Positions 1 through 44,317 of a stretch of DNA of 44,317 nucleotides are shown here, piece by piece; the stretch's first letter is position 1; each line of letters begins with the position of its first letter. The position numbers and the translations under genes are program-made. Source of the DNA: a phage; sequence record PX907402.1, one strand, 5' to 3'. The notes under the pieces were generated by a model. It saw nothing but the letters and a program-made list of their open reading frames with translations, searched no databases and had not been told where the DNA came from.

Positions 1-110
1 CACCCCTGTCCCGCTTTTAATTTATGCAATGTTGGTGGGTAAATATGCAGTTTTTATAGGTGCGGTATAGAACGGGACAAAACGGGACGTCCCGCCTGTC
101 CCGCTCCGTT
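1..110. repeat. Right half of composite element copy A: GTCCCGC/GCGGGAC iterons (including palindromic cgggacgtcccgcctgtcccgc) and AT-rich tract ttttaatttatgcaatg; continues from window end
   Basis: Direct reading; shares tgtcccgcctgtcccg, tgtcccgcttt and ttatgca blocks with 16376-16500. Confidence 0.6.
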
Positions 111-432
111 ATGCTGGGTTCTGCCGCGCCATTTCATCCAGCGCAACGCGCTCCATTAGCTTAATATCTTTAAACGCACGCTGCGCGTTTTCGATGCCGT
201 GCATCTTAAATAACCATTCCAGTACGCCGTAGTCGATGCCGTATGCGCCGCCGAATCCGGTGCGCCATTGCGTGGAGCAATCTGTGAAGACTGCGACTAC
301 CTTCGCGTTGTCGGGCCACAGCGCAACGGGCGGACACACGTCTTCAGGTGTCGCGCCCCATAAACTCGCGGCTAAATCTTCGGAGGGTGGCGGCGGGCCA
401 TAAAAGCGCCGCGCCGCCTCAATTAGTTTTTT
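109..432 (-). CDS. Tail assembly chaperone T-like segment, probably expressed only as a fusion to the upstream G-like ORF by -1 frameshift
   Basis: Frame is open from 432 to stop at 109 with no good start; overlaps end of ORF 423..785 at a slippery A AAA AAC; sits between major tail and tape measure genes in circular order. Confidence 0.55.
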   Translation of the reverse strand, partial: KKLIEAARRFYGPPPPSEDLAASLWGATPEDVCPPVALWPDNAKVVAVFTDCSTQWRTGFGGAYGIDYGVLEWLFKMHGIENAQRAFKDIKLMERVALDEMARQNPA

Positions 433-5670: not shown

Positions 5671-5709
5671 TTGCAATCCTCGTATTGGTTGCACTATATT
5701 GGTTGCACT
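5671..5709 (+). promoter_or_regulatory. Candidate promoter for DnaN-like gene with two ATTGGTTGCAC direct repeats
   Basis: TTGCAA (5671-5676), 18 bp spacer, TATATT (5695-5700); motif copies at 5684-5694 and 5698-5708. Confidence 0.45.
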
Positions 5710-9313: not shown

Positions 9314-10699
9314 TTAGTAGAAATCTACGGTAGGAACAACGGCGATTGGACGAATCACAGGGAACAAGTGCGCAATAGGGTAGCCCGCGGCATCGTTCAT
9401 GTGGTCCACACCGGCGGTTTTATCCGGCTCGCCTTTCTTCAGGTCGTAAACCTGCTGTTCCAGACATTTCGCTAGTGTAGGGCATTTATCCAGGTTGACA
9501 AAATACTGGCGCACGCCCTTCGAGTTGCACATCATCGTATTCATCGCGATCAATCGGTCTTTCACAGGCGGGTTAACACTGCCATACTCCACCTCGAAGC
9601 CAGCGTCTTCCAGTTGTGCGATATCGGACGACGACGCGTTGACCGTCTTGCGTGATCTGCCGCTGCTATCAGGGTAAACGACAACACGACCGGCAGCACA
9701 ATGATCGGGGTAGCGCTCCTCGATCGCCTCAATCATAGCCGGGGTGTCAAACAGGTCCACAAATTCATCCACCGCGTGAATCTCGTCGCGGAACTCCTTG
9801 TTCTCGGTGACTCGCTGCCGTCTGACGTACACAACCGCCGCCATCTTCGTGACGTTAAAGTCCATACCGATAATCAGCGTGTCGTCCGGCTTCACTTCTT
9901 CGGTGCTGGCGTTCTCCTCGCGGTTGAACATCTTGTACACCGCGCCCGACGTAAGGTTAACAAACAGGCCGTTCAGGTACGCGTCGATCAGGTTAGCCGG
10001 GTACTGACTGCGCAGCGTGTCGATAAAGTCTGCCGGTAAATGGTGGTTGTCCGTGGTCTTCGCCCGGATCAGGCGCTTCTGGCTATCCTTCTCCACCTCG
10101 AAAATTTGGTACATCGCCCGGTAGCCTTCAGGCGTTGACACGATGACGAACTGGCGGACGAAGCCAGCACGCAGACGACCGAGCAATTTGTGATATGCCG
10201 CCAGCGCGACGTCTTGCTTCGTAGTGTCAAACTCGTCGGCAACAATCCACGCGGCGTTGATACCGATCAGGCGGGTATAGTTCTCCATTGACTCACAGAT
10301 AACGCGAGTCCATTTGCCTTTCACCAGCACGTTGTAAATCTTGTCCTGCTTATTGAACTTCCACCGGAAGCCAGCCTCGTCGAATGCCTTCTCCAGTTCC
10401 GGATACATGATTTTAACCAGGAGTGGAATAGTCGGTTCGGTCACGATGCCGTCATAACCAGGGTTAAGTGTCAGAAGCTGGATGACCTTACGTGCGGCAA
10501 CCCATGACTTGCCACCGCCGAAGCCGGAACACAGGCCGAGGATTTTAGTCTTCGTGTCGCGCAGTAGTTCAACCTGGTGCGGCAAGCAATCAGGCTGGTA
10601 AAGGCGGACGGCCTGCGCAACGCGTGTCGGGCGTGGTGGTCGGTTGCGCTTTGCGATCGTGCGCTCCAGTGCGCGGTGTTCTGCCGCATAGTTACGCAT
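9314..10699 (-). CDS. Terminase large subunit
   Basis: Walker A-like GFGGGKSW and Walker B-like IVADEFD; 461 aa; upstream of portal. Confidence 0.85.
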   Translation of the reverse strand: MRNYAAEHRALERTIAKRNRPPRPTRVAQAVRLYQPDCLPHQVELLRDTKTKILGLCSGFGGGKSWVAARKVIQLLTLNPGYDGIVTEPTIPLLVKIMYPELEKAFDEAGFRWKFNKQDKIYNVLVKGKWTRVICESMENYTRLIGINAAWIVADEFDTTKQDVALAAYHKLLGRLRAGFVRQFVIVSTPEGYRAMYQIFEVEKDSQKRLIRAKTTDNHHLPADFIDTLRSQYPANLIDAYLNGLFVNLTSGAVYKMFNREENASTEEVKPDDTLIIGMDFNVTKMAAVVYVRRQRVTENKEFRDEIHAVDEFVDLFDTPAMIEAIEERYPDHCAAGRVVVYPDSSGRSRKTVNASSSDIAQLEDAGFEVEYGSVNPPVKDRLIAMNTMMCNSKGVRQYFVNLDKCPTLAKCLEQQVYDLKKGEPDKTAGVDHMNDAAGYPIAHLFPVIRPIAVVPTVDFY

Positions 10700-11250
10700 T
10701 ATTCACCCTGGCCTTTGCCGGAAGGTTCGACAACTACGTCGCCGTTATCATCTTCGTCGTCATCCAGCGGTACATCGTCGCGGACGCCGTGGTTTGCTTT
10801 AAGCAGGAATGTGGCGAAGCCCGCAGCGATGGTTACGCCGCCAGCTTCCATCAGGAAAGTTTTCTGCAGTTCCATAGCGTCAGCCATCGCCTCGGCGAAC
10901 TCCTCATGCGCACGCGCCCAGCGATACAGGCAAGCTACGCCCACGCCGATTTCAGCGGCAAATCTGCCGAAGGTTGGCATTTTGTTGCGGGGGATTACTT
11001 GCGCAGCGCCTTTATCGGAGTAGTTGACCTGCCAGGCGTCGGCGTCGGCAAAATAGCGGCGAAGCTGGTCGCAGTAGACGGATCGGTAGTCAGTAGGTCG
11101 CCCACATTTGCCGCCTTTACGGCGCTTTCCGTACTCGATTTCAGGTCCTAGATTGGTATGTTCTGTTTGCTCGCCTGGTTTACGGCGCGGGGTTACTGCC
11201 ACTCGTCCGTCCAGTTTGGCGCGTCGGCCCTTAACTTTGATTTCTGCCAT
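10699..11250 (-). CDS. Terminase small subunit (putative)
   Basis: Basic N-terminus, acidic C-terminus, stop overlaps TerL start; start chosen at ATG 11250. Confidence 0.5.
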   Translation of the reverse strand: MAEIKVKGRRAKLDGRVAVTPRRKPGEQTEHTNLGPEIEYGKRRKGGKCGRPTDYRSVYCDQLRRYFADADAWQVNYSDKGAAQVIPRNKMPTFGRFAAEIGVGVACLYRWARAHEEFAEAMADAMELQKTFLMEAGGVTIAAGFATFLLKANHGVRDDVPLDDDEDDNGDVVVEPSGKGQGE

Positions 11251-11367
11251 GATATAAGCCCTTTTGTTCATATGCGCCGACCATCGGCGACATAGGAGAC
11301 GGCCCTGCCATCTAATGGGGATTATAACAGGCACAAAAAAGCCCACCAAATCGGCAGGCTGGGAGGC

Positions 11368-16107: not shown

Positions 16108-16134
16108 GTTCCGCCCTCCTGTTGGTGCGCAACC

Positions 16135-16168
16135 AATATATCAAGGTGCCGGGGTGAATGCAACCAAT
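16135..16168 (-). promoter_or_regulatory. Candidate sigma70-like promoter with ATTGGTTGCAT motif
   Basis: Minus strand TTGCAT (16158-16163), 17 bp spacer, TATATT (16135-16140), then ggttgcgc. Confidence 0.45.
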
Positions 16169-16322
16169 ATTAATCACGCGCATGAAAAAGTTGATCGCTA
16201 TCTGCTGTAACTGCAAACCGCATTTTTCACTTCACATAACACAACTCGCATTGGTTGCCTAGTTCATCAACGACCGCGATTCACATCATGCTGCCGTACA
16301 TTATGCAATCCCGGATTTTATG

Positions 16323-16374
16323 CAGTCTCAGACGAGGGGGGCCACTGACCCCCGTCTAGTCTGAAAGACTGGGG
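16323..16374. repeat. Composite element copy B: conserved GC-rich hairpin
   Basis: 51 of 52 nt identical to 44248-44299; imperfect stem gacgaggggg/cccccgtc plus agtct-gaa-agact. Confidence 0.7.
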
Positions 16375-16375
16375 T

Positions 16376-16500
16376 TTGTCCCGCCTGTCCCGCTCCTCGC
16401 CAGGCCGCGTCATCCGGGGCGGGACAGGGGTGCTGTCCCGCTTTGTCCCGCTCCTTGTTTGTCCCGCTTTTTGTCCCGTTTGTTTTATGCAGTTTTATTG
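16376..16500. repeat. Composite element copy B: GTCCCGC iteron array followed by AT-rich tract
   Basis: At least six TGTCCCGC-like repeats at 10-16 bp spacing plus one inverted GCGGGACA; then ttttatgcagttttattgcataac. Confidence 0.65.
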
Positions 16501-16527
16501 CATAACTATTCATAATAATCACGCCAC

Positions 16528-16635
16528 ACGGCAACCAATGCGACCAGATAAAAACACTCAAAATGGCAACCAATGCGCGCACAAATTAATCGTTTAGCGA
16601 TATGTGGATTCCCATATCGGCAACCAATGCGCGCA
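16528..16635. repeat. Three direct repeats GGCAACCAATGCG(C/A) at about 52 bp spacing
   Basis: Direct reading between primase stop and iteron array. Confidence 0.55.
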
Positions 16636-16639
16636 GAAT

Positions 16640-18904
16640 TTAATCTTTTAAGTCGTCATCGGTTGCAGAAAGCGTGATGGGTATATTCGTTTTTATGACG
16701 ATATTCGACGACCCATAGATGGCTCCGGTGTGCGGATCGGTATAAAAACCGAGTACGCCGCGCTCGACCATATCGTCGATTGCCTTCGTCGATGTGCCAC
16801 CTTTTGCCAATCCTGCCTGGCGGACAATTGCCGATTTACTGAATCCGGTATGGTCCGGGTTATCTTCCATCAGTTTTTCCAGGGCCGCGTAAAGTACCTT
16901 TTCTTTTTCGGTGCGCGGTCCGGCGGTGTTCTCTTCCTTAACTGCGGCTTTTCCTGCGGCCTTCGCCTGTTCTATAGCGAACGGTGCCAGGGCGACCGGT
17001 ACGAGGTACAGAGTCTCGTCGCGTGGCGTGGAGGCAATTGGCTTGACGTCCCAACCGGCAACCACATCGCCGAAGTCCGGCCCGGTGCTGGTGGACTGGT
17101 GGGCTTCGAACGCTTCGGACTTGCGGAGATCCACCTTAACCTTGCACTTGAGCAGGACGAAGCCGCGCGGCGCTTGCTTAATGCCGTTACGTGCCTTCTC
17201 ATGATACAGGTTCAATTGTCCGGGCTGGTTGTCGTCCGGTTGCTCCAGGAAGAACGCGGAATCGACAGCACCATGCAGCGCGCCGGACCCGCGGGGGGAT
17301 CTGCTGCCGTTTGCACCTTTCGCCGGGTGGTGAATGACGCCCGCACTGCCGCCGGTATTTTCCGCGATGGCCTTCAGCGCTTTGACCACTTCACCCATAT
17401 CGCTGGCGTTGTTCTCGTCGAACGGTTTAGCATCGGCGGACCGCAACGCAACAGTCTGGTTGAGTGAGTCGAACGCCACCAGGCCAACCGGTTCGCCGTT
17501 AGCGGTGCGGTTGATGAAGCTGATAACTTCGCGCAAGCCTGATTTGCTGGTGATATCCCAGCCGCGTGACTGCAGATCGATAATGTGCAGCTTGTCGAGG
17601 TCGTGCTCGTATTTGATCTGCAATGCTTCTTTGCGCTGGTTAGAGGCTTCACCACCTTCCGCATCGAAATAGAAGCAATGAGACTGGACGACCTTCGCAC
17701 CGCCGAACGGAATACCGGCGGCAACCGCGCCCATCTGCCCCAGCACATAGAAAGACTTACCAATGTTCGACTCGCCCGCCATATACCAGGTCGATTTGAA
17801 GTTAATCAACCCCTCGATAATCGGGTCGTGCTTACTGAACAGCGCAACCGGCTCGTTATCCAGATCCGCATCGGTGCACACGCCGTATTCTTCGCCGTCG
17901 CCAACCGCATCAACAATATGTTCATATAAGGATTCGACTTCTTCGTCGTCCAGCCCCGGAAGGATGGCGGCGATTTGCTTACGGGACATATTGTGTGGCT
18001 CGACGTTCAGGTGGTCCGGGATCCCGATAAGACGTAGCGCCAGGTGCTGGTGCCTATTCAGTTCCGAGCAACACTCGTTGCCTGTGTGCATACACTTGAA
18101 ACGGATCTCGCCATCCTTGACCATGATAGCCGTCGACCCTTCGCCGCTGTGCAGATGTTCGTTCGGGCACGGCACTTCATAACCACGACCGGACGACAGC
18201 GGTTCGAATCCTGCCTGGAAGCACCAATCCAGAATACCGTCCGCCACGCCGTCATCGCCCTGGGTTAGTTCGCGGCGTACTTCCTCTTTCTCCACTCCCA
18301 GCTTATCAGCCAGGCGAAGCAGACGACGGACGCGGGCACGTTTGCCGTAGTGACACTTAACAACCGATTGCTGGTGTGGCAGGTACATAAGGCGGTTTGT
18401 GTCTTTCGTGCAATCATCGAAGTCCACATCTGACAGGCCCAGTTGGTGTAATAGTGCATACTGTACGCGGCCCAGGTCTTCCGCCGGTACAGGATTATCG
18501 GTGAGCACCAGGAAACGAGCGCAACGCGTGCCGCCTTTCAGCGGGTGGCGGTCGCCGGTTGTGGTGTGGAATACATGTTCCAGTCCCGCGTCGATGAATG
18601 CCTTACGGCAGCGGCGTAAGGTGCGGGTGTCGGTACGGTCAATATCGAAGAACAGGATCGAGCGGTCCACCGCACTGGTCTTACGACGCAATCCGTCACA
18701 GGTATACGCCACGATGCCATCGGCCTTACGCTTGCGGCGCGCATACTCGGCTTTATCTTCCGTCCTGTTGATATGCACCGAGGATATTTCTTTCGCATCA
18801 TTGATAAATTCGAAGAACTCTTCGGTAGTCATCTGGAAGTTTTCCGCCCTGGCTTTTTCGCCTTTTTTAGCGGGTCGTGTTACAGCGAATTTAATTAAGC
18901 TCAT
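16640..18904 (-). CDS. Primase-helicase (prim-pol-like N-terminus, Cys-rich finger, RecA/DnaB-like ATPase)
   Basis: ILFFDIDRTD acidic motif, CPNEHLH...CMHTGNEC cysteine cluster, Walker A GESNIGKS and Walker B LVAFDSL. Confidence 0.75.
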   Translation of the reverse strand: MSLIKFAVTRPAKKGEKARAENFQMTTEEFFEFINDAKEISSVHINRTEDKAEYARRKRKADGIVAYTCDGLRRKTSAVDRSILFFDIDRTDTRTLRRCRKAFIDAGLEHVFHTTTGDRHPLKGGTRCARFLVLTDNPVPAEDLGRVQYALLHQLGLSDVDFDDCTKDTNRLMYLPHQQSVVKCHYGKRARVRRLLRLADKLGVEKEEVRRELTQGDDGVADGILDWCFQAGFEPLSSGRGYEVPCPNEHLHSGEGSTAIMVKDGEIRFKCMHTGNECCSELNRHQHLALRLIGIPDHLNVEPHNMSRKQIAAILPGLDDEEVESLYEHIVDAVGDGEEYGVCTDADLDNEPVALFSKHDPIIEGLINFKSTWYMAGESNIGKSFYVLGQMGAVAAGIPFGGAKVVQSHCFYFDAEGGEASNQRKEALQIKYEHDLDKLHIIDLQSRGWDITSKSGLREVISFINRTANGEPVGLVAFDSLNQTVALRSADAKPFDENNASDMGEVVKALKAIAENTGGSAGVIHHPAKGANGSRSPRGSGALHGAVDSAFFLEQPDDNQPGQLNLYHEKARNGIKQAPRGFVLLKCKVKVDLRKSEAFEAHQSTSTGPDFGDVVAGWDVKPIASTPRDETLYLVPVALAPFAIEQAKAAGKAAVKEENTAGPRTEKEKVLYAALEKLMEDNPDHTGFSKSAIVRQAGLAKGGTSTKAIDDMVERGVLGFYTDPHTGAIYGSSNIVIKTNIPITLSATDDDLKD

Positions 18905-18914
18905 TGCCGTTGCC

Positions 18915-19244
18915 TTACTTTGAAGTTTTATTATTGCGTACCCAGGAGCGCACTGTGCTCTGATTAATTCCGGTCAACTCGGCGATCATTGCCCAGGATT
19001 TGCCCTCGGCGCGCAAACGGATAACCTGTTTTTTGTATTCTTCCATTTCTTCATTGTGTTTTTGCAGCTTGCTTGCTGCCGTGCCGTTGAGCAATTCCAG
19101 CTTCGCGGTAAGCTCCTTCTCAGCACGCGATAATCTGGACACTTCAAATAACACAGCCCCCACGGCATCGGTGTATGCCCATGACCGGCTTGTCTCACTG
19201 CAAACAGTCTTCGTTAACATTTCGATTGCGTCGTTTACATTCAT
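18915..19244 (-). CDS. HTH-domain DNA-binding protein (putative transcriptional regulator)
   Basis: C-terminal KSWAMIAELTGINQSTVRSWV helix-turn-helix-like segment; 109 aa. Confidence 0.45.
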   Translation of the reverse strand: MNVNDAIEMLTKTVCSETSRSWAYTDAVGAVLFEVSRLSRAEKELTAKLELLNGTAASKLQKHNEEMEEYKKQVIRLRAEGKSWAMIAELTGINQSTVRSWVRNNKTSK

Positions 19245-29477: not shown

Positions 29478-29511
29478 ATTGGTTGCATAATCATATTGGT
29501 TGCATTATATT
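29478..29511 (+). promoter_or_regulatory. Candidate promoter with two ATTGGTTGCAT direct repeats
   Basis: Motif copies 29478-29488 and 29495-29505; TTGCAT (29483-29488), 17 bp spacer, TATATT (29506-29511). Confidence 0.5.
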
Positions 29512-41536: not shown

Positions 41537-44179
41537 TCATCGTTTGTAAAGTACACCACCCGGTTTCGTCGCCTTCACGATCTCGGACTTCACCGCCTCG
41601 GTGATTTGCTTGCCGAACGCCTGCGCGGTACGGGGGTCCGGCCCGCTGACACTGGTATCCGTTTTACCGGTCCCCGTGTAAACGTTAGTCGTCACGACCA
41701 TACCACCGCCTGCGCCAGACGCAGCAACGCCCAGTTTACCGTCAGGCCCGCGCTTCAGTGGCATGATGGCCTCGGGGCCAGCCTCGCCCATCAATCCCGC
41801 GCCCTTAGCGAACGCCTGGACGCCATAACTGAAAAAGGTAGGCTGGCTTACCACTTTCCCCGAATAGGCCGCGAGATTGCCTCCTGCGTACGCTCCGCCG
41901 TCCGCATTCTTAGTCAGGCCCGAGAAGATAGCGCCGAACAATCCGTTTTTGCCGCCGTCACCACCGAAAGCGCTAACGATAGACTTGAAAGCCTGCGAGG
42001 TAGCCAGCTTGATTAACTCGCTCAGGATGGACTTAACCATATCCTTTGCGTTCAGCTTGCCCGTCTCGAAAAACTCGTTCATCGTGTCTTGCATAGCGCT
42101 GAACGTGAATTTTGTGAGCGACGTCATCTGCGTATATCCGTTACCCATATCATCCACACTATCCTTAAGCCCGCGGCTGAAGCCATCCCATAGCGAGGCG
42201 TTAGCACCGGTCTGTGCTTCCTGCACTTCACGCAGCTTAGACACCGCCTTGTCTATATCGGTATCGTTAGCGCCAACCCGCTTCAGGCGGTCAATTAGCT
42301 GCAATTCTTCACGCAGGTTTGCCGCTTCGCGAGTGGAAAGCGCATAGCCCGCGGCGGTGGCTTTTAGTTCGGCGTTCTGGTTCTTAACGAAGGCATCGAT
42401 CTGCGCGTGCGCCTTAACCTGCTTCTCTTTCGCGTCCAGTAGTTTGGCTTCTTCGACGATCTGCTCGCGCACTTCCTTCACGCGTCCGAATTCGACCATC
42501 TGCTGCTTCTCTGCTGCCGTTAGCGCCCTTTGTTTGCTCGCGGCGATTAACTGCTCATTGTCGGCAATCAGCTTGTTTAAGGCCGCTTGAGCGCGTTGCG
42601 TGCGGGTCTGCGTAGACGCGTTGGCTTCGATCTGCTTGCCGGATTCTCGAAGCTGGGCCAGTTCGCTCCGTGCGACTTCCAGCATTTTCATACCGGCATC
42701 CACGCGAACAGCCGCGGCCTTCTTCGGGGCGGGGTCTTTGTAGCGCTCGTTTACCTGCTTCACCGCCTCCGCAAGCTCTTTCTCGTCAATAACGCCGCGC
42801 TTATTCAGCAAATTGAGGCGGGCGATCTCGTCTGCACGCTTTTTCGCGTTGGTTGCGTACTCCTTCTCGAACGCAGCGCGGTCGCGGGCGGTGCGGTTAG
42901 CCTCCTCGTTCGCCTTTGCGGATTCGTCTGCGGCGCGGGCGTTGTCTCGCTCCGCACGGTTACGCAGGGTGAGCGACGCCACCACTTTTTCCTGGGCGAC
43001 CAGTTCGCTGTAAAGCATGTTAATACGCGCTTTCTGCGCTTCGGTCATAACTCCACCGGCAGCGTTTACCGCTTTCATCTCGGCATAGTAAGCCGTGGTC
43101 ATGCGCTGCAATGATTCACGCGCTTTCATCTCGGACTCATTCGAGGACTGCGCGCGGCCCACATCCAGGATGGCATCCCACATCGATTTAGCTGCCGATG
43201 TGACGACGTTCATCGACCGCTCAAGCGTGCCCATGTTTGACTTGATCTCATTGGTCATGCTGGTGAACGACGCAGCGGCGGTTTTGTTAGCCAACGCAAC
43301 TGCGTCTGTCTCACGACCCGCATCAACCAGCGACTGCACCTGCTGGATCTGCGCTTCGTTTACGACGTGATACTTATCCGCCAGTGCGCGCAAGCCGCCC
43401 ACGGGGTCAGTGGAGAGCTTCGCCACCGCCGCCACCACATCCTCGATCGGCTGGCTGGACACCTTCGCAAAGTCATTAACTACCTTAGCCAATGCGCCGA
43501 AGTCACCACCCGCTTTCACCCCCGCCGCCGCCAGCGCCTGGATTGTGTCACGCGTCTTGCGAAATGACCCGCCCATGCGCTCGGCGTTCTCGGACAGCAC
43601 CAGGATCTGGTTAGCGGTGAGGCCAGAGATATTACCAGACAGCGCCAGCGTCTTATTAAGCGCTGCGACCTGGTTCTCTGCTCGGGACGTAATTGCCACC
43701 CCTACGCCGAGCGTTGCCGTTAATGCAGCGATGCCGATCCCTAACGGGCCGAGTGTGCCAACGACATAACGCAGCGTGTTTCCCAGTCCGCCAAACGCCC
43801 CAGTAAGCTGCGGTAACTGCTGAAGCATAACGCGGTGCACCGGCATACCCATCTCAAGCGTAACCGCGATATCCTGTAACTGGAATGCGGCGTTCCGCGA
43901 TGCGAATCCCAGGTTTTTGGTCGACATGCCTAATCGGCTGGCGAGTCGCTCCTGTTTCGTCATGCCGTCGGCGGCGCGCTGCGATTCAGTCGCTAACTTT
44001 TCCATTCCGCCAGCAGCGTCGCCAGTAACCTTTTTCGACTTGCCAAGTGTGTCGTTTAATTTTTTTACTTTCTGTTCTGTGTTCTCGGATTTCTGCGCAA
44101 ATGTGTCCAGCACAGTATTAGCCGTTTTAATTTGCGCGACGTCCGCCTTGAGCGTGATGCCCGCTGCTTGATCTGCCAT
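41537..44179 (-). CDS. Tail tape measure protein
   Basis: 880 aa, A/K/E-rich coiled-coil, Gly-rich C-terminal segment; between chaperones and tail tip genes. Confidence 0.85.
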   Translation of the reverse strand: MADQAAGITLKADVAQIKTANTVLDTFAQKSENTEQKVKKLNDTLGKSKKVTGDAAGGMEKLATESQRAADGMTKQERLASRLGMSTKNLGFASRNAAFQLQDIAVTLEMGMPVHRVMLQQLPQLTGAFGGLGNTLRYVVGTLGPLGIGIAALTATLGVGVAITSRAENQVAALNKTLALSGNISGLTANQILVLSENAERMGGSFRKTRDTIQALAAAGVKAGGDFGALAKVVNDFAKVSSQPIEDVVAAVAKLSTDPVGGLRALADKYHVVNEAQIQQVQSLVDAGRETDAVALANKTAAASFTSMTNEIKSNMGTLERSMNVVTSAAKSMWDAILDVGRAQSSNESEMKARESLQRMTTAYYAEMKAVNAAGGVMTEAQKARINMLYSELVAQEKVVASLTLRNRAERDNARAADESAKANEEANRTARDRAAFEKEYATNAKKRADEIARLNLLNKRGVIDEKELAEAVKQVNERYKDPAPKKAAAVRVDAGMKMLEVARSELAQLRESGKQIEANASTQTRTQRAQAALNKLIADNEQLIAASKQRALTAAEKQQMVEFGRVKEVREQIVEEAKLLDAKEKQVKAHAQIDAFVKNQNAELKATAAGYALSTREAANLREELQLIDRLKRVGANDTDIDKAVSKLREVQEAQTGANASLWDGFSRGLKDSVDDMGNGYTQMTSLTKFTFSAMQDTMNEFFETGKLNAKDMVKSILSELIKLATSQAFKSIVSAFGGDGGKNGLFGAIFSGLTKNADGGAYAGGNLAAYSGKVVSQPTFFSYGVQAFAKGAGLMGEAGPEAIMPLKRGPDGKLGVAASGAGGGMVVTTNVYTGTGKTDTSVSGPDPRTAQAFGKQITEAVKSEIVKATKPGGVLYKR

Positions 44180-44247
44180 TATGCAGTCCCCCTTTTTATG
44201 CAGTTGCCGTCGGTCATTGTATCAGCGAATTTAAAACAAACCTTATT

Positions 44248-44299
44248 CAGTCTCAGACGAGGGGGGCCATTGACCCCCGTCTAGTCTGAAAGACTGGGG
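44248..44299. repeat. Composite element copy A: conserved GC-rich hairpin
   Basis: 51 of 52 nt identical to 16323-16374. Confidence 0.7.
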
Positions 44300-44317
44300 A
44301 TTGTCCCGCCTGTCCCG
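44300..44317. repeat. Start of copy A iteron array (ttgtcccgcctgtcccg), continues at window start
   Basis: Identical to 16376-16393. Confidence 0.6.

What the first reader, a model, noticed from the sequence alone, without database searches (positions are those of the whole stretch)
44238..44317. Second copy of the hairpin-plus-iteron element spans the window junction between the GT chaperone and tape measure genes
44248-44299 matches 16323-16374 at 51 of 52 positions, and is followed by the same ttgtcccgcctgtcccg iterons continuing into positions 1-110 (more GTCCCGC/GCGGGAC repeats and an AT-rich ttttaatttatgcaatg tract). The genes either side (T-like segment ending at 109, tape measure starting at 44179) are consecutive members of one tail operon, so the window is a circular permutation with its join inside this element. 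A ~250 bp structured spacer between T and the tape measure gene is unusual. It could mark the packaged genome termini (cos/pac-like), a second iteron site, or a cis-acting RNA element (processing or antitermination) shared with the start of the minus-strand unit.
Basis: seen in the sequence. Interest (0 to 1): 0.6.

Follow-up and report, generated by a model that had tools for sequence, protein, structure and literature searches.

The report
Second origin-like iteron site in tail operon
The repeat is real: it is the second copy of an iteron-plus-hairpin module that looks like a DNA replication origin, sitting inside the tail genes of an HK578/SO-1-like coliphage, but the window's "join" through it is an assembly break that has lost about 145 bases, not a genome end.

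Summary
44248-44299 equals 16323-16374 at 51/52; the shared block runs 71 bp at 69/71, and GTCCCG iterons cluster at both sites.

The window is a Dhillonvirus genome. The two sites are "region A" (T/tape-measure gap) and "region B" (just 3' of the helicase-primase gene), already marked as related repeat regions in the SO-1 GenBank record. All 159 matching phage records hold the element, nearly all twice.

The join is not seamless. Every relative examined has 140-150 bp more exactly where the window ends meet. Published data call these phages circularly permuted (headful), so a cos or pac reading is not supported.

The best reading is an iteron-type replication origin module present twice:
- Dense TGTCCCGC arrays in 20 of 21 otherwise unrelated phage and prophage loci abut the 3' end of an AAA_25 (RepA-like) helicase gene. 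None of 109 chance hits does.
- The window's helicase-primase ends in a winged-helix domain.
- Close relatives change the iteron but keep the hairpin through compensatory changes.
- Eiauvirus keeps the same two-site layout.

The closest analogues are SPP1 oriL/oriR and P4 ori/crr. Origin function is inferred, not shown. A transcription or RNA role for the hairpin is not excluded.

The parts
44180..44317 (.). Region A, tape-measure-proximal part as assembled (non-coding gap between the tape measure start codon and the window end)
   Evidence: Homologous to SO-1 'region A' repeat_region.
1..108 (.). Region A, T-proximal part. About 140-150 bp of region A is missing between 44317 and 1.
44248..44299 (.). 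Hairpin copy A: long imperfect hairpin of about 18 bp (outer CAGTCT/AGACTG, middle CAGAC/GTCTG, inner GGGGG/CCCCC) with a variable loop
   Evidence: DNA fold z -4.3 and -3.7; RNA fold z -4.9.
44301..44317 (+). Two direct iterons, TTGTCCCGCCTGTCCCG. This is the end of the 71-bp block shared with region B.
7..14 (+). Iteron TGTCCCGC. With the preceding CACCCC it is half of the quasi-palindrome CGGGACAGCACCCCTGTCCCGC, which the window start cuts.
15..66 (.). AT-rich tract with TTATGCA (22-28) and TATGCAG (44-50); candidate DNA unwinding element
   Evidence: AT-rich tracts next to iterons are conserved in the A and B alignments.
73..103 (.). Iteron cluster CGGGACAAAACGGGACGTCCCGCCTGTCCCG, including the palindrome CGGGACGTCCCG. 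In mRNA sense it is followed by TTTTG. HK578 annotators called the equivalent a rho-independent terminator.
44216..44224 (-). TGATACAAT, an extended -10-like motif about 30 nt upstream of the tape measure ribosome-binding site, invariant in all region A copies
   Evidence: Read by eye; the consensus scan did not call it, and there is no -35.
16108..16639 (.). Region B: the whole non-coding gap between the helicase-primase stop codon and the next minus-strand gene
   Evidence: Homologous to SO-1 'region B' repeat_region.
16323..16374 (.). Hairpin copy B
16377..16479 (.). Region B iterons: two direct copies, an inverted pair (CGGGACAGGGGTGCTGTCCCG), then four direct copies spaced 10, 16 and 12 bp
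16485..16505 (.). Palindrome TTATGCA-N7-TGCATAA at the start of an AT-rich tract. Its 7-bp centre is flipped in some relatives.
16640..18904 (-). Helicase-primase (754 aa), AAA_25/RepA-like core at residues 357-531. Candidate initiator that reads the iterons.
16670..16912 (-). C-terminal winged-helix domain of the helicase-primase (about residues 665-745), followed by the acidic tail DDDLKD
   Evidence: pLDDT 74-88; weak hits to MarR, histone H1, ORC and ScpB winged helices.
18915..19244 (-). 109-aa HTH protein (HTH_23 / Sigma70_r4_2). Its HTH is invariant across relatives with different iterons, so it is unlikely to read the iterons.
109..339 (-). T-like (DUF1799) segment of the tail assembly chaperone
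41537..44179 (-). Tape measure protein gene

Best explanation
The element at the window junction is 'region A', the second copy of a roughly 200-bp cis module whose first copy ('region B') lies directly 3' of the phage helicase-primase gene.

The module consists of:
- a conserved long hairpin;
- direct and inverted TGTCCCGC iterons;
- an AT-rich tract carrying TTATGCA palindromes.

I read it as an iteron-type replication origin module. The proposed mechanism, all of it inferred, runs as follows. The helicase-primase binds the iterons through its C-terminal winged helix and oligomerises. The adjacent AT-rich tract melts. The hairpin extrudes and serves as a loading or priming signal, like the ssi hairpins of RSF1010 or the stem-loop origins of pRN1 and BPP-1. 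Region B would be the origin next to the initiator gene.

Region A, placed 16 kb away inside the late tail operon, would then be one of three things: a second origin, a required enhancer site (as P4 crr is), or an initiator-bound fork barrier that helps the switch to concatemer synthesis (as proposed for SPP1 oriR).

What is shown: the repeat, its conservation, its exclusive link to AAA_25 helicase genes, the winged-helix fold, and the hairpin covariation. What is inferred: binding, melting, priming and any origin firing.

The window ends lying inside region A are an assembly break. About 145 bp is missing there.
For: 1. Two copies per genome in nearly all of the 159 GenBank Dhillonvirus records that match, 327 places in all. 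A and B share about 82-83% identity over 178-197 bp in PNS1 and SO-1.
2. Iterons, hairpin stems and TTATGCA are invariant across 32 A and B copies, while spacers and the hairpin loop vary.
3. The exact 17-mer GTCCCGCTTTGTCCCGC finds dense arrays in unrelated IMG/VR contigs. In 10 of the 13 checked, an AAA_25 helicase gene lies next to the array, mostly ending within about 320 bp of it. In bacterial genomes 9 of 11 arrays have such a gene against 0 of 109 isolated chance hits, Fisher P = 5e-12.
4. In all-against-all clustering of array neighbourhoods, the helicase is the only protein family shared: 20 of 21 loci. The N-terminal primase domains differ among them.
5. The ORF on the far side of each array is co-directional in 11 loci and convergent in 6. 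The constant partner is therefore the helicase 3' end, not a downstream promoter.
6. The helicase-primase C-terminus models as a winged helix.
7. Relatives with 67-70% identical helicase switch the iteron (GCGGGACA, GTGGCA, GTGCCA, GGTGCC) while keeping position, an AT-rich tract and the hairpin. Residues at the start of winged-helix helix 3 sort by iteron type.
8. The hairpin inner stem changes by compensation: GGGGG/CCCCC, GGGTG/CACCC, GGGAG/CTCCC, GGGGTG/CACCCC. All five lineages fold with z between -3.3 and -4.9.
9. Edwardsiella phage eiAU, a different genus, has the same two large gaps sharing its own repeats and a homologous hairpin just upstream of its tape measure gene.
10. Precedents exist. 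SPP1 has oriL in its initiator gene and oriR interrupting the late genes, both made of repeats plus an AT-rich tract (PMC6316719). pRN1 and BPP-1 have stem-loop origins just 3' of a primase-helicase-winged-helix gene; P4 alpha binds origin repeats through a winged helix; RSF1010 uses iterons plus ssi hairpins (PMC4234260).
Against: - There is no experimental evidence of origin activity or protein binding for any Dhillonvirus. Searches found none.
- GC skew follows transcription direction and gives no origin signal.
- The winged helix of the window protein shows no detectable sequence similarity to the C-terminal domain of the unrelated helicases that sit next to the same iteron (hhalign probability 0.3%).
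- The fit between winged-helix residues and iteron type rests on 7 sequences in 4 related groups.
- A related Salmonella phage (GRNsp27, helicase 44% identical) has repeats 3' of its helicase gene but no T/tape-measure spacer. The second site is therefore not general.
- Region B lies at the early/late boundary and region A carries a terminator-like palindrome and a -10-like motif, so a transcriptional role is also plausible.
Confidence: 0.55

Rival explanations
1. Transcription control region of the late operon. The iterons bind a phage regulator. The palindromic iteron pair after T terminates or attenuates transcription so that the tape measure and distal tail genes are made at lower levels. 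A promoter in the spacer re-initiates, and the hairpin acts in the transcript.
For: Region B sits between the early helicase-primase gene and the lysis and structural genes on the same strand, and region A sits inside that 28-kb unit. The HK578 record annotates a rho-independent terminator 15 nt after the T-like ORF, which is the CGGGACGTCCCG+TTTTG palindrome. TGATACAAT is invariant about 30 nt before the tape measure ribosome-binding site. Operator-like GCAACCAAT boxes flank region B.
Against: The consensus scan finds no sigma-70 promoter in either region. The main hairpin has no U-tract on either strand. The same iteron arrays track the 3' end of helicase genes in unrelated phages whatever the orientation of the next gene. 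No regulator is shared among those loci. The one HTH protein nearby does not co-vary with the iterons. This reading can coexist with origin function.
Confidence: 0.2
2. The conserved hairpin is a cis-acting RNA element in the late mRNA, such as an RNase III-type processing site or a 5'/3' stabiliser. It is present once at the start of the late genes and once before the tape measure gene.
For: The hairpin has about 18 bp with internal loops and folds with z -3.3 to -4.9 as RNA in five lineages. Stems are conserved with compensatory changes while the loop is hypervariable. Both copies lie on the transcribed strand upstream of genes.
Against: No Rfam family matches at gathering level, and only chance-level microRNA hits appear at relaxed threshold. 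The structure is equally good as DNA on both strands, so covariation does not separate RNA from DNA. In Dhillonviruses the hairpin always travels with the iterons. eiAU has it only in region A.
Confidence: 0.15
3. The element marks the packaged genome ends (cos or pac site), and the window starts at a physical terminus.
For: The window ends fall inside the element. The eiAU record also starts in its T/tape-measure gap.
Against: PhageTerm on Dhillonviruses gave headful packaging or circular permutation (PMC9022532; 4 of 5 phages in PMC8407724). The element is present twice per genome. About 145 bp present in all relatives examined is missing exactly at the join. Contigs of relatives also break in region B. 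The terminase genes are about 11 kb away.
Confidence: 0.03
4. A duplicated selfish or recombinogenic repeat with no function of its own in the tail operon, or a site for site-specific recombination between the two direct copies.
For: There are two direct copies 16 kb apart. The architecture is nested inverted repeats. The centre of a small palindrome flips between genomes.
Against: The position and motif content of region A are conserved in all 159 matching records and, with different sequence, in Eiauvirus. Motifs are conserved while spacers drift. No recombinase is associated. The nearby protein annotated 'transposase/resolvase' is only an HTH.
Confidence: 0.04

Closest known systems
Bacillus phage SPP1 oriL / oriR (bound by gp38)
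   Same: A roughly 44-kb headful-packaging siphovirus with two origin sequences of like organisation (direct repeats plus an AT-rich unwinding element). One is at the initiator gene and the other is in a non-coding segment interrupting the late structural genes, about 13 kb apart on the circle. The second site is proposed to stall forks and trigger the switch to concatemer synthesis (PMC6316719).
   Different: The proteins are unrelated. SPP1 has a separate origin-binding protein, loader and DnaB-type helicase, whereas here there is one helicase-primase with a winged helix. oriL lies inside gene 38, not 3' of it. No long conserved hairpin is described for SPP1. Binding and origin activity are shown for SPP1 and not here.
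Satellite phage P4 ori / crr with the alpha protein
   Same: One multifunctional primase-helicase with a C-terminal winged-helix domain binds short repeats at the origin (PMC4234260). From my own knowledge, not checked here: P4 also needs a second, distant repeat cluster (crr) in cis.
   Different: P4 alpha has a Toprim primase and an SF3 helicase. The window protein has an AAA_25 (RepA/RecA-like) core and no Pfam-detectable primase domain. The iteron sequence differs. Foldseek did not single out the P4 domain.
IncQ plasmid RSF1010 oriV
   Same: Iterons, an AT-rich region and hairpins (ssiA, ssiB) that become single-stranded and are recognised by the primase. The RepA helicase belongs to the family that defines AAA_25 (PMC4234260; Pfam hit).
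   Different: RSF1010 uses three separate proteins, with RepC reading the iterons, and two short hairpins on opposite strands. Here there is one long hairpin per module and no RepC homologue was found or sought.
pRN1 and Bordetella phage BPP-1/BIP-1 stem-loop origins
   Same: The origin lies directly 3' of the gene for a primase-helicase-winged-helix replication protein and is a long stem-loop whose integrity is needed for replication (PMC4234260).
   Different: Those origins are reported to lack iterons, and their helicase is SF3. Here the iterons dominate and the module is duplicated.
SO-1 GenBank annotation 'region A' and 'region B' (GQ502199)
   Same: This is the same two loci. They are annotated in 2009 as repeat regions of direct, inverted and palindromic repeats with mutual similarity.
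   Different: It is only an annotation note, which the tool truncates after 'possible ...'. No paper found here analyses it, and the link to helicase genes in other phages is not part of it.

Membership tests
Iteron-type replication origin | Cluster of short direct repeats (iterons), often with inverted copies | tested here: met
   7 GTCCCG in about 125 bp at the junction and 7 in 101 bp in region B, P about 1e-11 to 1e-12; spacing 9-16 bp.
Iteron-type replication origin | Adjacent AT-rich DNA unwinding element | tested here: met
   AT-rich tracts at 15-66 and 16480-16525 next to the iterons in a 54% GC genome, conserved in relatives. Actual unwinding was not tested.
Iteron-type replication origin | Genetic linkage to the initiator gene | tested here: met
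   Region B abuts the helicase-primase stop codon. The same iteron arrays abut AAA_25 helicase genes in 20 of 21 unrelated loci, against 0 of 109 chance hits.
Iteron-type replication origin | Initiator binds the iterons; the site supports initiation | not testable with these tools
   Needs EMSA or footprinting, plasmid replication assays or marker-frequency sequencing.
Dual-origin layout (SPP1 oriL/oriR; P4 ori/crr) | Two distant sites with the same repeats, one at the initiator gene and one elsewhere | tested here: met
   A and B are 16.3 kb apart, 69/71 identical in the window and 82-83% over 178-197 bp in PNS1 and SO-1. The same layout occurs in eiAU.
Dual-origin layout (SPP1 oriL/oriR; P4 ori/crr) | Homology of the initiator to gp38 or P4 alpha | tested here: not met
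   Pfam finds only AAA_25. PHROGs places the protein in 'replicative helicase-primase' phrog_3228. Foldseek on the winged helix gives only generic winged-helix hits. The system works alike but is not a member.
cos / pac packaging site | Coincides with physical DNA ends; single site, usually near terS | tested here: not met
   Two copies; terS is 11 kb away; published PhageTerm results give permuted or headful genomes; the join lacks about 145 bp. Raw reads were not available.
Intrinsic (rho-independent) terminator | GC-rich hairpin followed directly by a U-tract | tested here: not met
   The 52-nt hairpin has no T-run on either strand. Separately, the small palindrome CGGGACGTCCCG+TTTTG after T does fit loosely and is annotated as a terminator in HK578.
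Known structured RNA families (Rfam 15, all 4227 families) | Match to a curated covariance model | tested here: not met
   No hit at gathering score in the whole window. Only sub-threshold microRNA-like hits to the inverted repeats appear in a full-length region A.
IncQ-type oriV | Two ssi hairpins on opposite strands, and a RepC-type iteron binder | tested here: inconclusive
   There is one long hairpin plus one small palindrome per module. A RepA-type helicase core is present. RepC was not searched for.

The most novel reading that the evidence does not exclude
The unit made of an AAA_25 helicase(-primase) gene followed by TGTCCCGC iterons and a GC-rich hairpin is a widespread origin module that the literature searched here does not describe. 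It is shared by phages and prophages of several proteobacterial classes and by uncultured viruses. Dhillonviruses and Eiauviruses have planted a second copy between the tail chaperone and tape measure genes. There the initiator-bound DNA both acts in replication (second origin or fork barrier for the switch to concatemers) and attenuates transcription into the distal tail genes, coupling replication state to tail-gene dosage.
Probability: 0.15. Interest if true: 0.75.

Novelty: new variant of a known kind. Interest (0 to 1): 0.5.

Why it matters
Dhillonviruses are common coliphages used in phage collections and biocontrol, and I found no published description of where their DNA replication starts. 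If the two modules are origins, several things follow:
- The group gains a testable replication model with SPP1-like logic, built from unrelated parts.
- A simple sequence signature (iterons 3' of an AAA_25 helicase gene) becomes available for finding origins in many phages and prophages.
- The natural iteron switches among close relatives offer a way to study how initiator specificity evolves.

There is also a practical point. The nested repeats break assemblies. This window, presented as a complete circle, very probably lacks about 145 bp.

Tried and rejected
- Rfam scans of the whole window and of a full-length region A gave nothing meaningful; there are no tRNA or tmRNA genes.
- The sigma-70 and terminator consensus scans of both regions found nothing above shuffled expectation.
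- GC skew as an origin indicator only mirrors the coding strand.
- A literature search for the iteron string returned only primer sequences. Searches for Dhillonvirus termini, transcription or origins returned genome announcements only.
- A plasmid database search with the iteron core found no relevant plasmid.
- The C-terminal 190 aa alone found no homologues in the word-indexed protein search. The full-length protein was needed.
- hhalign between the window's winged helix and the C-terminal domain of the other iteron-linked helicases showed no similarity.
- I first suspected that GenBank records ending about 90 bp after the region B hairpin were assembly breaks. PEC9 showed the sequence is continuous there, so that is a chosen start point and is not evidence.
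- The HTH protein as iteron reader was rejected: its HTH is invariant while the iterons change.
- A MAFFT alignment of hairpins from distant lineages was not structure-aware enough for formal pair counting. Covariation was therefore read from individual folds.

Full report
**What the window is.** The window is a Dhillonvirus (HK578/SO-1-like coliphage) genome. A 218-bp query across the finding matches 159 GenBank phage records at 80-99% identity, nearly all with two matching places per record. On the minus strand the gene order is:
- HTH protein (18915-19244);
- helicase-primase (16640-18904);
- a 532-bp gap;
- small genes, lysis genes, terS (10699-11349) and terL;
- head and tail genes, then G (423-800) and T (109-339);
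- the gap under study;
- tape measure (41537-44179) and the distal tail genes.

This order rests.

**The observation.**
- 44248-44299 equals 16323-16374 at 51/52. The shared block is 71 bp at 69/71 and includes two iterons.
- The hairpin pattern occurs exactly twice, against none in shuffles.
- GTCCCG is not enriched overall (30 against 26.9 expected). Seven copies sit in about 125 bp at the junction and seven in 101 bp of region B, each with P about 1e-11 to 1e-12.
- TTATGCA is enriched (14 against 5.7), and half the copies lie in these two regions.
- The hairpin is a long imperfect structure of about 18 bp. It folds well as DNA on either strand (z -3.1 to -4.3) and as RNA (z -4.9).

**The join is an artefact.** In YD-2008.s, PNS1, SO-1 and twelve other relatives the T/tape-measure gap is about 385 bp. 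The window lacks 140-150 bp of it, and the gap in the alignment falls exactly between base 44317 and base 1.
- When the two window ends are joined and searched, all 40 best records match in two pieces spanning 415-427 bp for a 278-bp query. None holds the short form.
- The missing block is the part of region A most like region B. Full-length region A is a nest of inverted repeats, with arms of 49, 32 and 24 nt.
- Three of six metagenomic contigs of relatives stop inside region B.
- Published PhageTerm analyses report headful packaging or circular permutation for this genus (PMC9022532; PMC8407724).

The window ends therefore mark an assembly break, not a physical terminus. The real genome is probably about 145 bp longer.

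**Prior knowledge.** The SO-1 GenBank record (2009) already marks both loci as repeat regions 'A' and 'B' with mutual similarity; the tool truncates its note. HK578 annotators marked a rho-independent terminator 15 nt after the T-like ORF, which is the palindromic iteron pair. I found no paper that analyses either region.

**Anatomy of the module.** Aligning 15 A and 17 B copies gives a shared core of about 215 bp, made of these parts in order:
- TTAT(G/T)CAGTCT;
- the hairpin;
- two iterons;
- a variable GC-rich spacer that differs between the A and B types;
- an inverted iteron pair;
- four direct iterons;
- TTTATGCA and an AT-rich tract.

Iterons, stems and TTATGCA are invariant. Spacers and the hairpin loop vary. 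A and B are 82-83% identical over 178-197 bp within PNS1 and SO-1. Region A then adds a second iteron and AT-rich cluster towards T.

**Link to a helicase family.** The exact 17-mer GTCCCGCTTTGTCCCGC was scanned in IMG/VR and in one genome per bacterial and archaeal species.
- Besides Dhillonviruses, about 20 unrelated viral contigs carry dense arrays, often as inverted iterons around a GC-rich hairpin. In 10 of the 13 checked, an AAA_25 helicase gene lies next to the array, mostly ending within about 320 bp of it.
- In the genome scan, 9 of 11 arrays have such a gene. None of 109 isolated (chance) hits does, Fisher P = 5e-12.
- Clustering all neighbouring ORFs shows the helicase is the only shared family, in 20 of 21 loci.
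- The N-terminal primase parts differ: Toprim with a zinc ribbon, Prim-Pol with PriCT_2, or none.
- The ORF on the far side of the array is co-directional in 11 loci and convergent in 6. These are crude ORF calls. They suggest the constant partner is the helicase 3' end rather than a downstream promoter.

**Who reads the iterons.** The last 90 or so residues of the window's helicase-primase model as a winged helix (pLDDT 74-88). Foldseek returns only winged-helix proteins, at weak E-values.

Relatives with 67-70% identical helicase keep the layout but change the iteron:
- GCGGGACA in L204;
- GTGGCA in L205 and L206;
- GTGCCA in L207;
- GGTGCC in L208 and L209.

It more likely binds the invariant GCAACCAA boxes. 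Residues at the start of winged-helix helix 3 sort by iteron type: GGT(S/N)T, GGSST, GGST(S/T). This is suggestive only, resting on seven sequences in four related groups. Against a simple picture, the window's winged helix shows no sequence similarity to the conserved C-terminal domain (motif RKAFxRA) of the unrelated helicases that use the same iteron.

**The hairpin.** Across lineages the three-stem architecture persists while the inner stem changes by compensation:
- GGGGG/CCCCC in Dhillonviruses;
- GGGTG/CACCC in L206;
- GGGAG/CTCCC in L207;
- GGGGTG/CACCCC in eiAU.

L207 also changes the middle stem from CAGAC/GTCTG to GAGAC/GTCTC. This argues for selection on pairing but cannot tell DNA from RNA.

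**A second genus.** Edwardsiella phage eiAU has a 900-bp gap 3' of its helicase-primase gene and a gap of about 1.1 kb between T and its tape measure gene. The two gaps share a 52-bp block at 88% identity, TCGCCCCG repeats, TTATGCA motifs and GCAACCAAC boxes. The homologous hairpin lies just before the tape measure gene. A more distant Salmonella phage, GRNsp27, has other repeats 3' of its helicase gene but no T/tape-measure spacer.

**Interpretation.** The best-supported reading is an iteron-type origin module present twice. It has close functional precedents:
- SPP1 oriL/oriR, where the second site interrupts the late genes and is proposed to act as a fork barrier (PMC6316719).
- P4 alpha binding origin repeats through a winged helix, RSF1010 iterons with ssi hairpins, and the pRN1 and BPP-1 stem-loop origins 3' of the replication gene (PMC4234260).

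Binding, melting, priming and firing are all inferred. A transcriptional role remains possible and could coexist, based on the terminator-like palindrome after T and the invariant TGATACAAT before the tape measure gene. So does an RNA role for the hairpin. The termini reading is not supported.

**Verdict.** The feature is real and conserved and was already noticed in one GenBank annotation, but its function has not been characterised. I rate it a new variant of a known kind (a dual iteron origin), with interest 0.5. The wider helicase-iteron association raises its value.

Noticed in passing
window 16129, 16160, 16250(-), 16531, 16566, 16620, 19435, 22240, 22256, 31152/31171, 29478-29503(-), 5684-5706(-), 15420(-), 26536(-), 34035(-): GCAACCAA(T) boxes recur in intergenic DNA. 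They often lie in the spacer or next to the -10 of sigma-70-like promoters, for example 19435 (TTGACA-N18-TATTAT) and 22240 (TTGACC-N17-TAAATT). They look like operators of a phage regulator. eiAU and all relatives with altered iterons keep them. The 109-aa HTH protein (18915-19244), whose HTH is invariant, is a candidate binder.
   Followed up: partly
window 16485-16505; relatives: The palindrome TTATGCA-N7-TGCATAA has its 7-bp centre in either orientation (GTTTTAT or ATAAAAC) in different Dhillonviruses. The pattern does not follow overall similarity, so the flip is recurrent. This hints that the palindrome extrudes or recombines in vivo.
   Followed up: partly
L036, L041, L047, L049, L050, L055, L059, L064, L067, L074, L076 (IMG/VR); L086, L094, L126, L128, L132, L133, L156, L181, L195 (bacterial genomes and MAGs): Dense TGTCCCGC/GCGGGACA iteron arrays, often as inverted iterons around a GC-rich hairpin, lie at the 3' end of AAA_25 helicase(-primase) genes in unrelated viruses and in Alpha-, Beta- and Gammaproteobacteria assemblies. 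These helicases share a C-terminal motif W-R-x-x-F-Y ... R-K-A-F-x-R-A.
   Followed up: partly
L204-L209 (region B of relatives with 67-70% identical helicase): The iteron sequence switches between close relatives (GCGGGACA, GTGGCA, GTGCCA, GGTGCC) while layout and hairpin are kept. A TGATTTATAAGGAG motif appears in the central spacer of several of them and in eiAU.
   Followed up: partly
window 16566-16639 and PNS1 (L033) region B: The unit GGCAACCAATGCGCGCA...TTTAGCGATATGGGAATTCCCATATC, of about 55 bp, lies between the helicase stop codon and the core. Its copy number varies among genomes: none or one in many, two in the window, three in PNS1. It was not scored by Tandem Repeats Finder.
   Followed up: no
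window 16643-16669 (protein C-terminus ...SATDDDLKD): The helicase-primase and its relatives end in an acidic tail (DDDLKD, DEDLEN and similar). From my own knowledge, this recalls the acidic C-terminal tails by which T7 gp4 and SSB contact the polymerase. A motif PRDETLYLVPVALAPF precedes the winged helix and is invariant across genera.
   Followed up: no
L035 (eiAU, KF772233) 42121-43015 and 1-221: The eiAU record also starts and ends inside its T/tape-measure gap, within a cluster of GCAACCAAC boxes. That gap holds a reverse-strand ORF, P858_54 (42365-42718).
   Followed up: no
L205, L208, L209: Metagenomic contigs of relatives stop 110-264 bp after the helicase stop codon, inside region B. 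Short-read assemblers commonly break at this repeat.
   Followed up: partly
L204 12590-12615: A (CACACG)n microsatellite lies inside region B of one relative.
   Followed up: no
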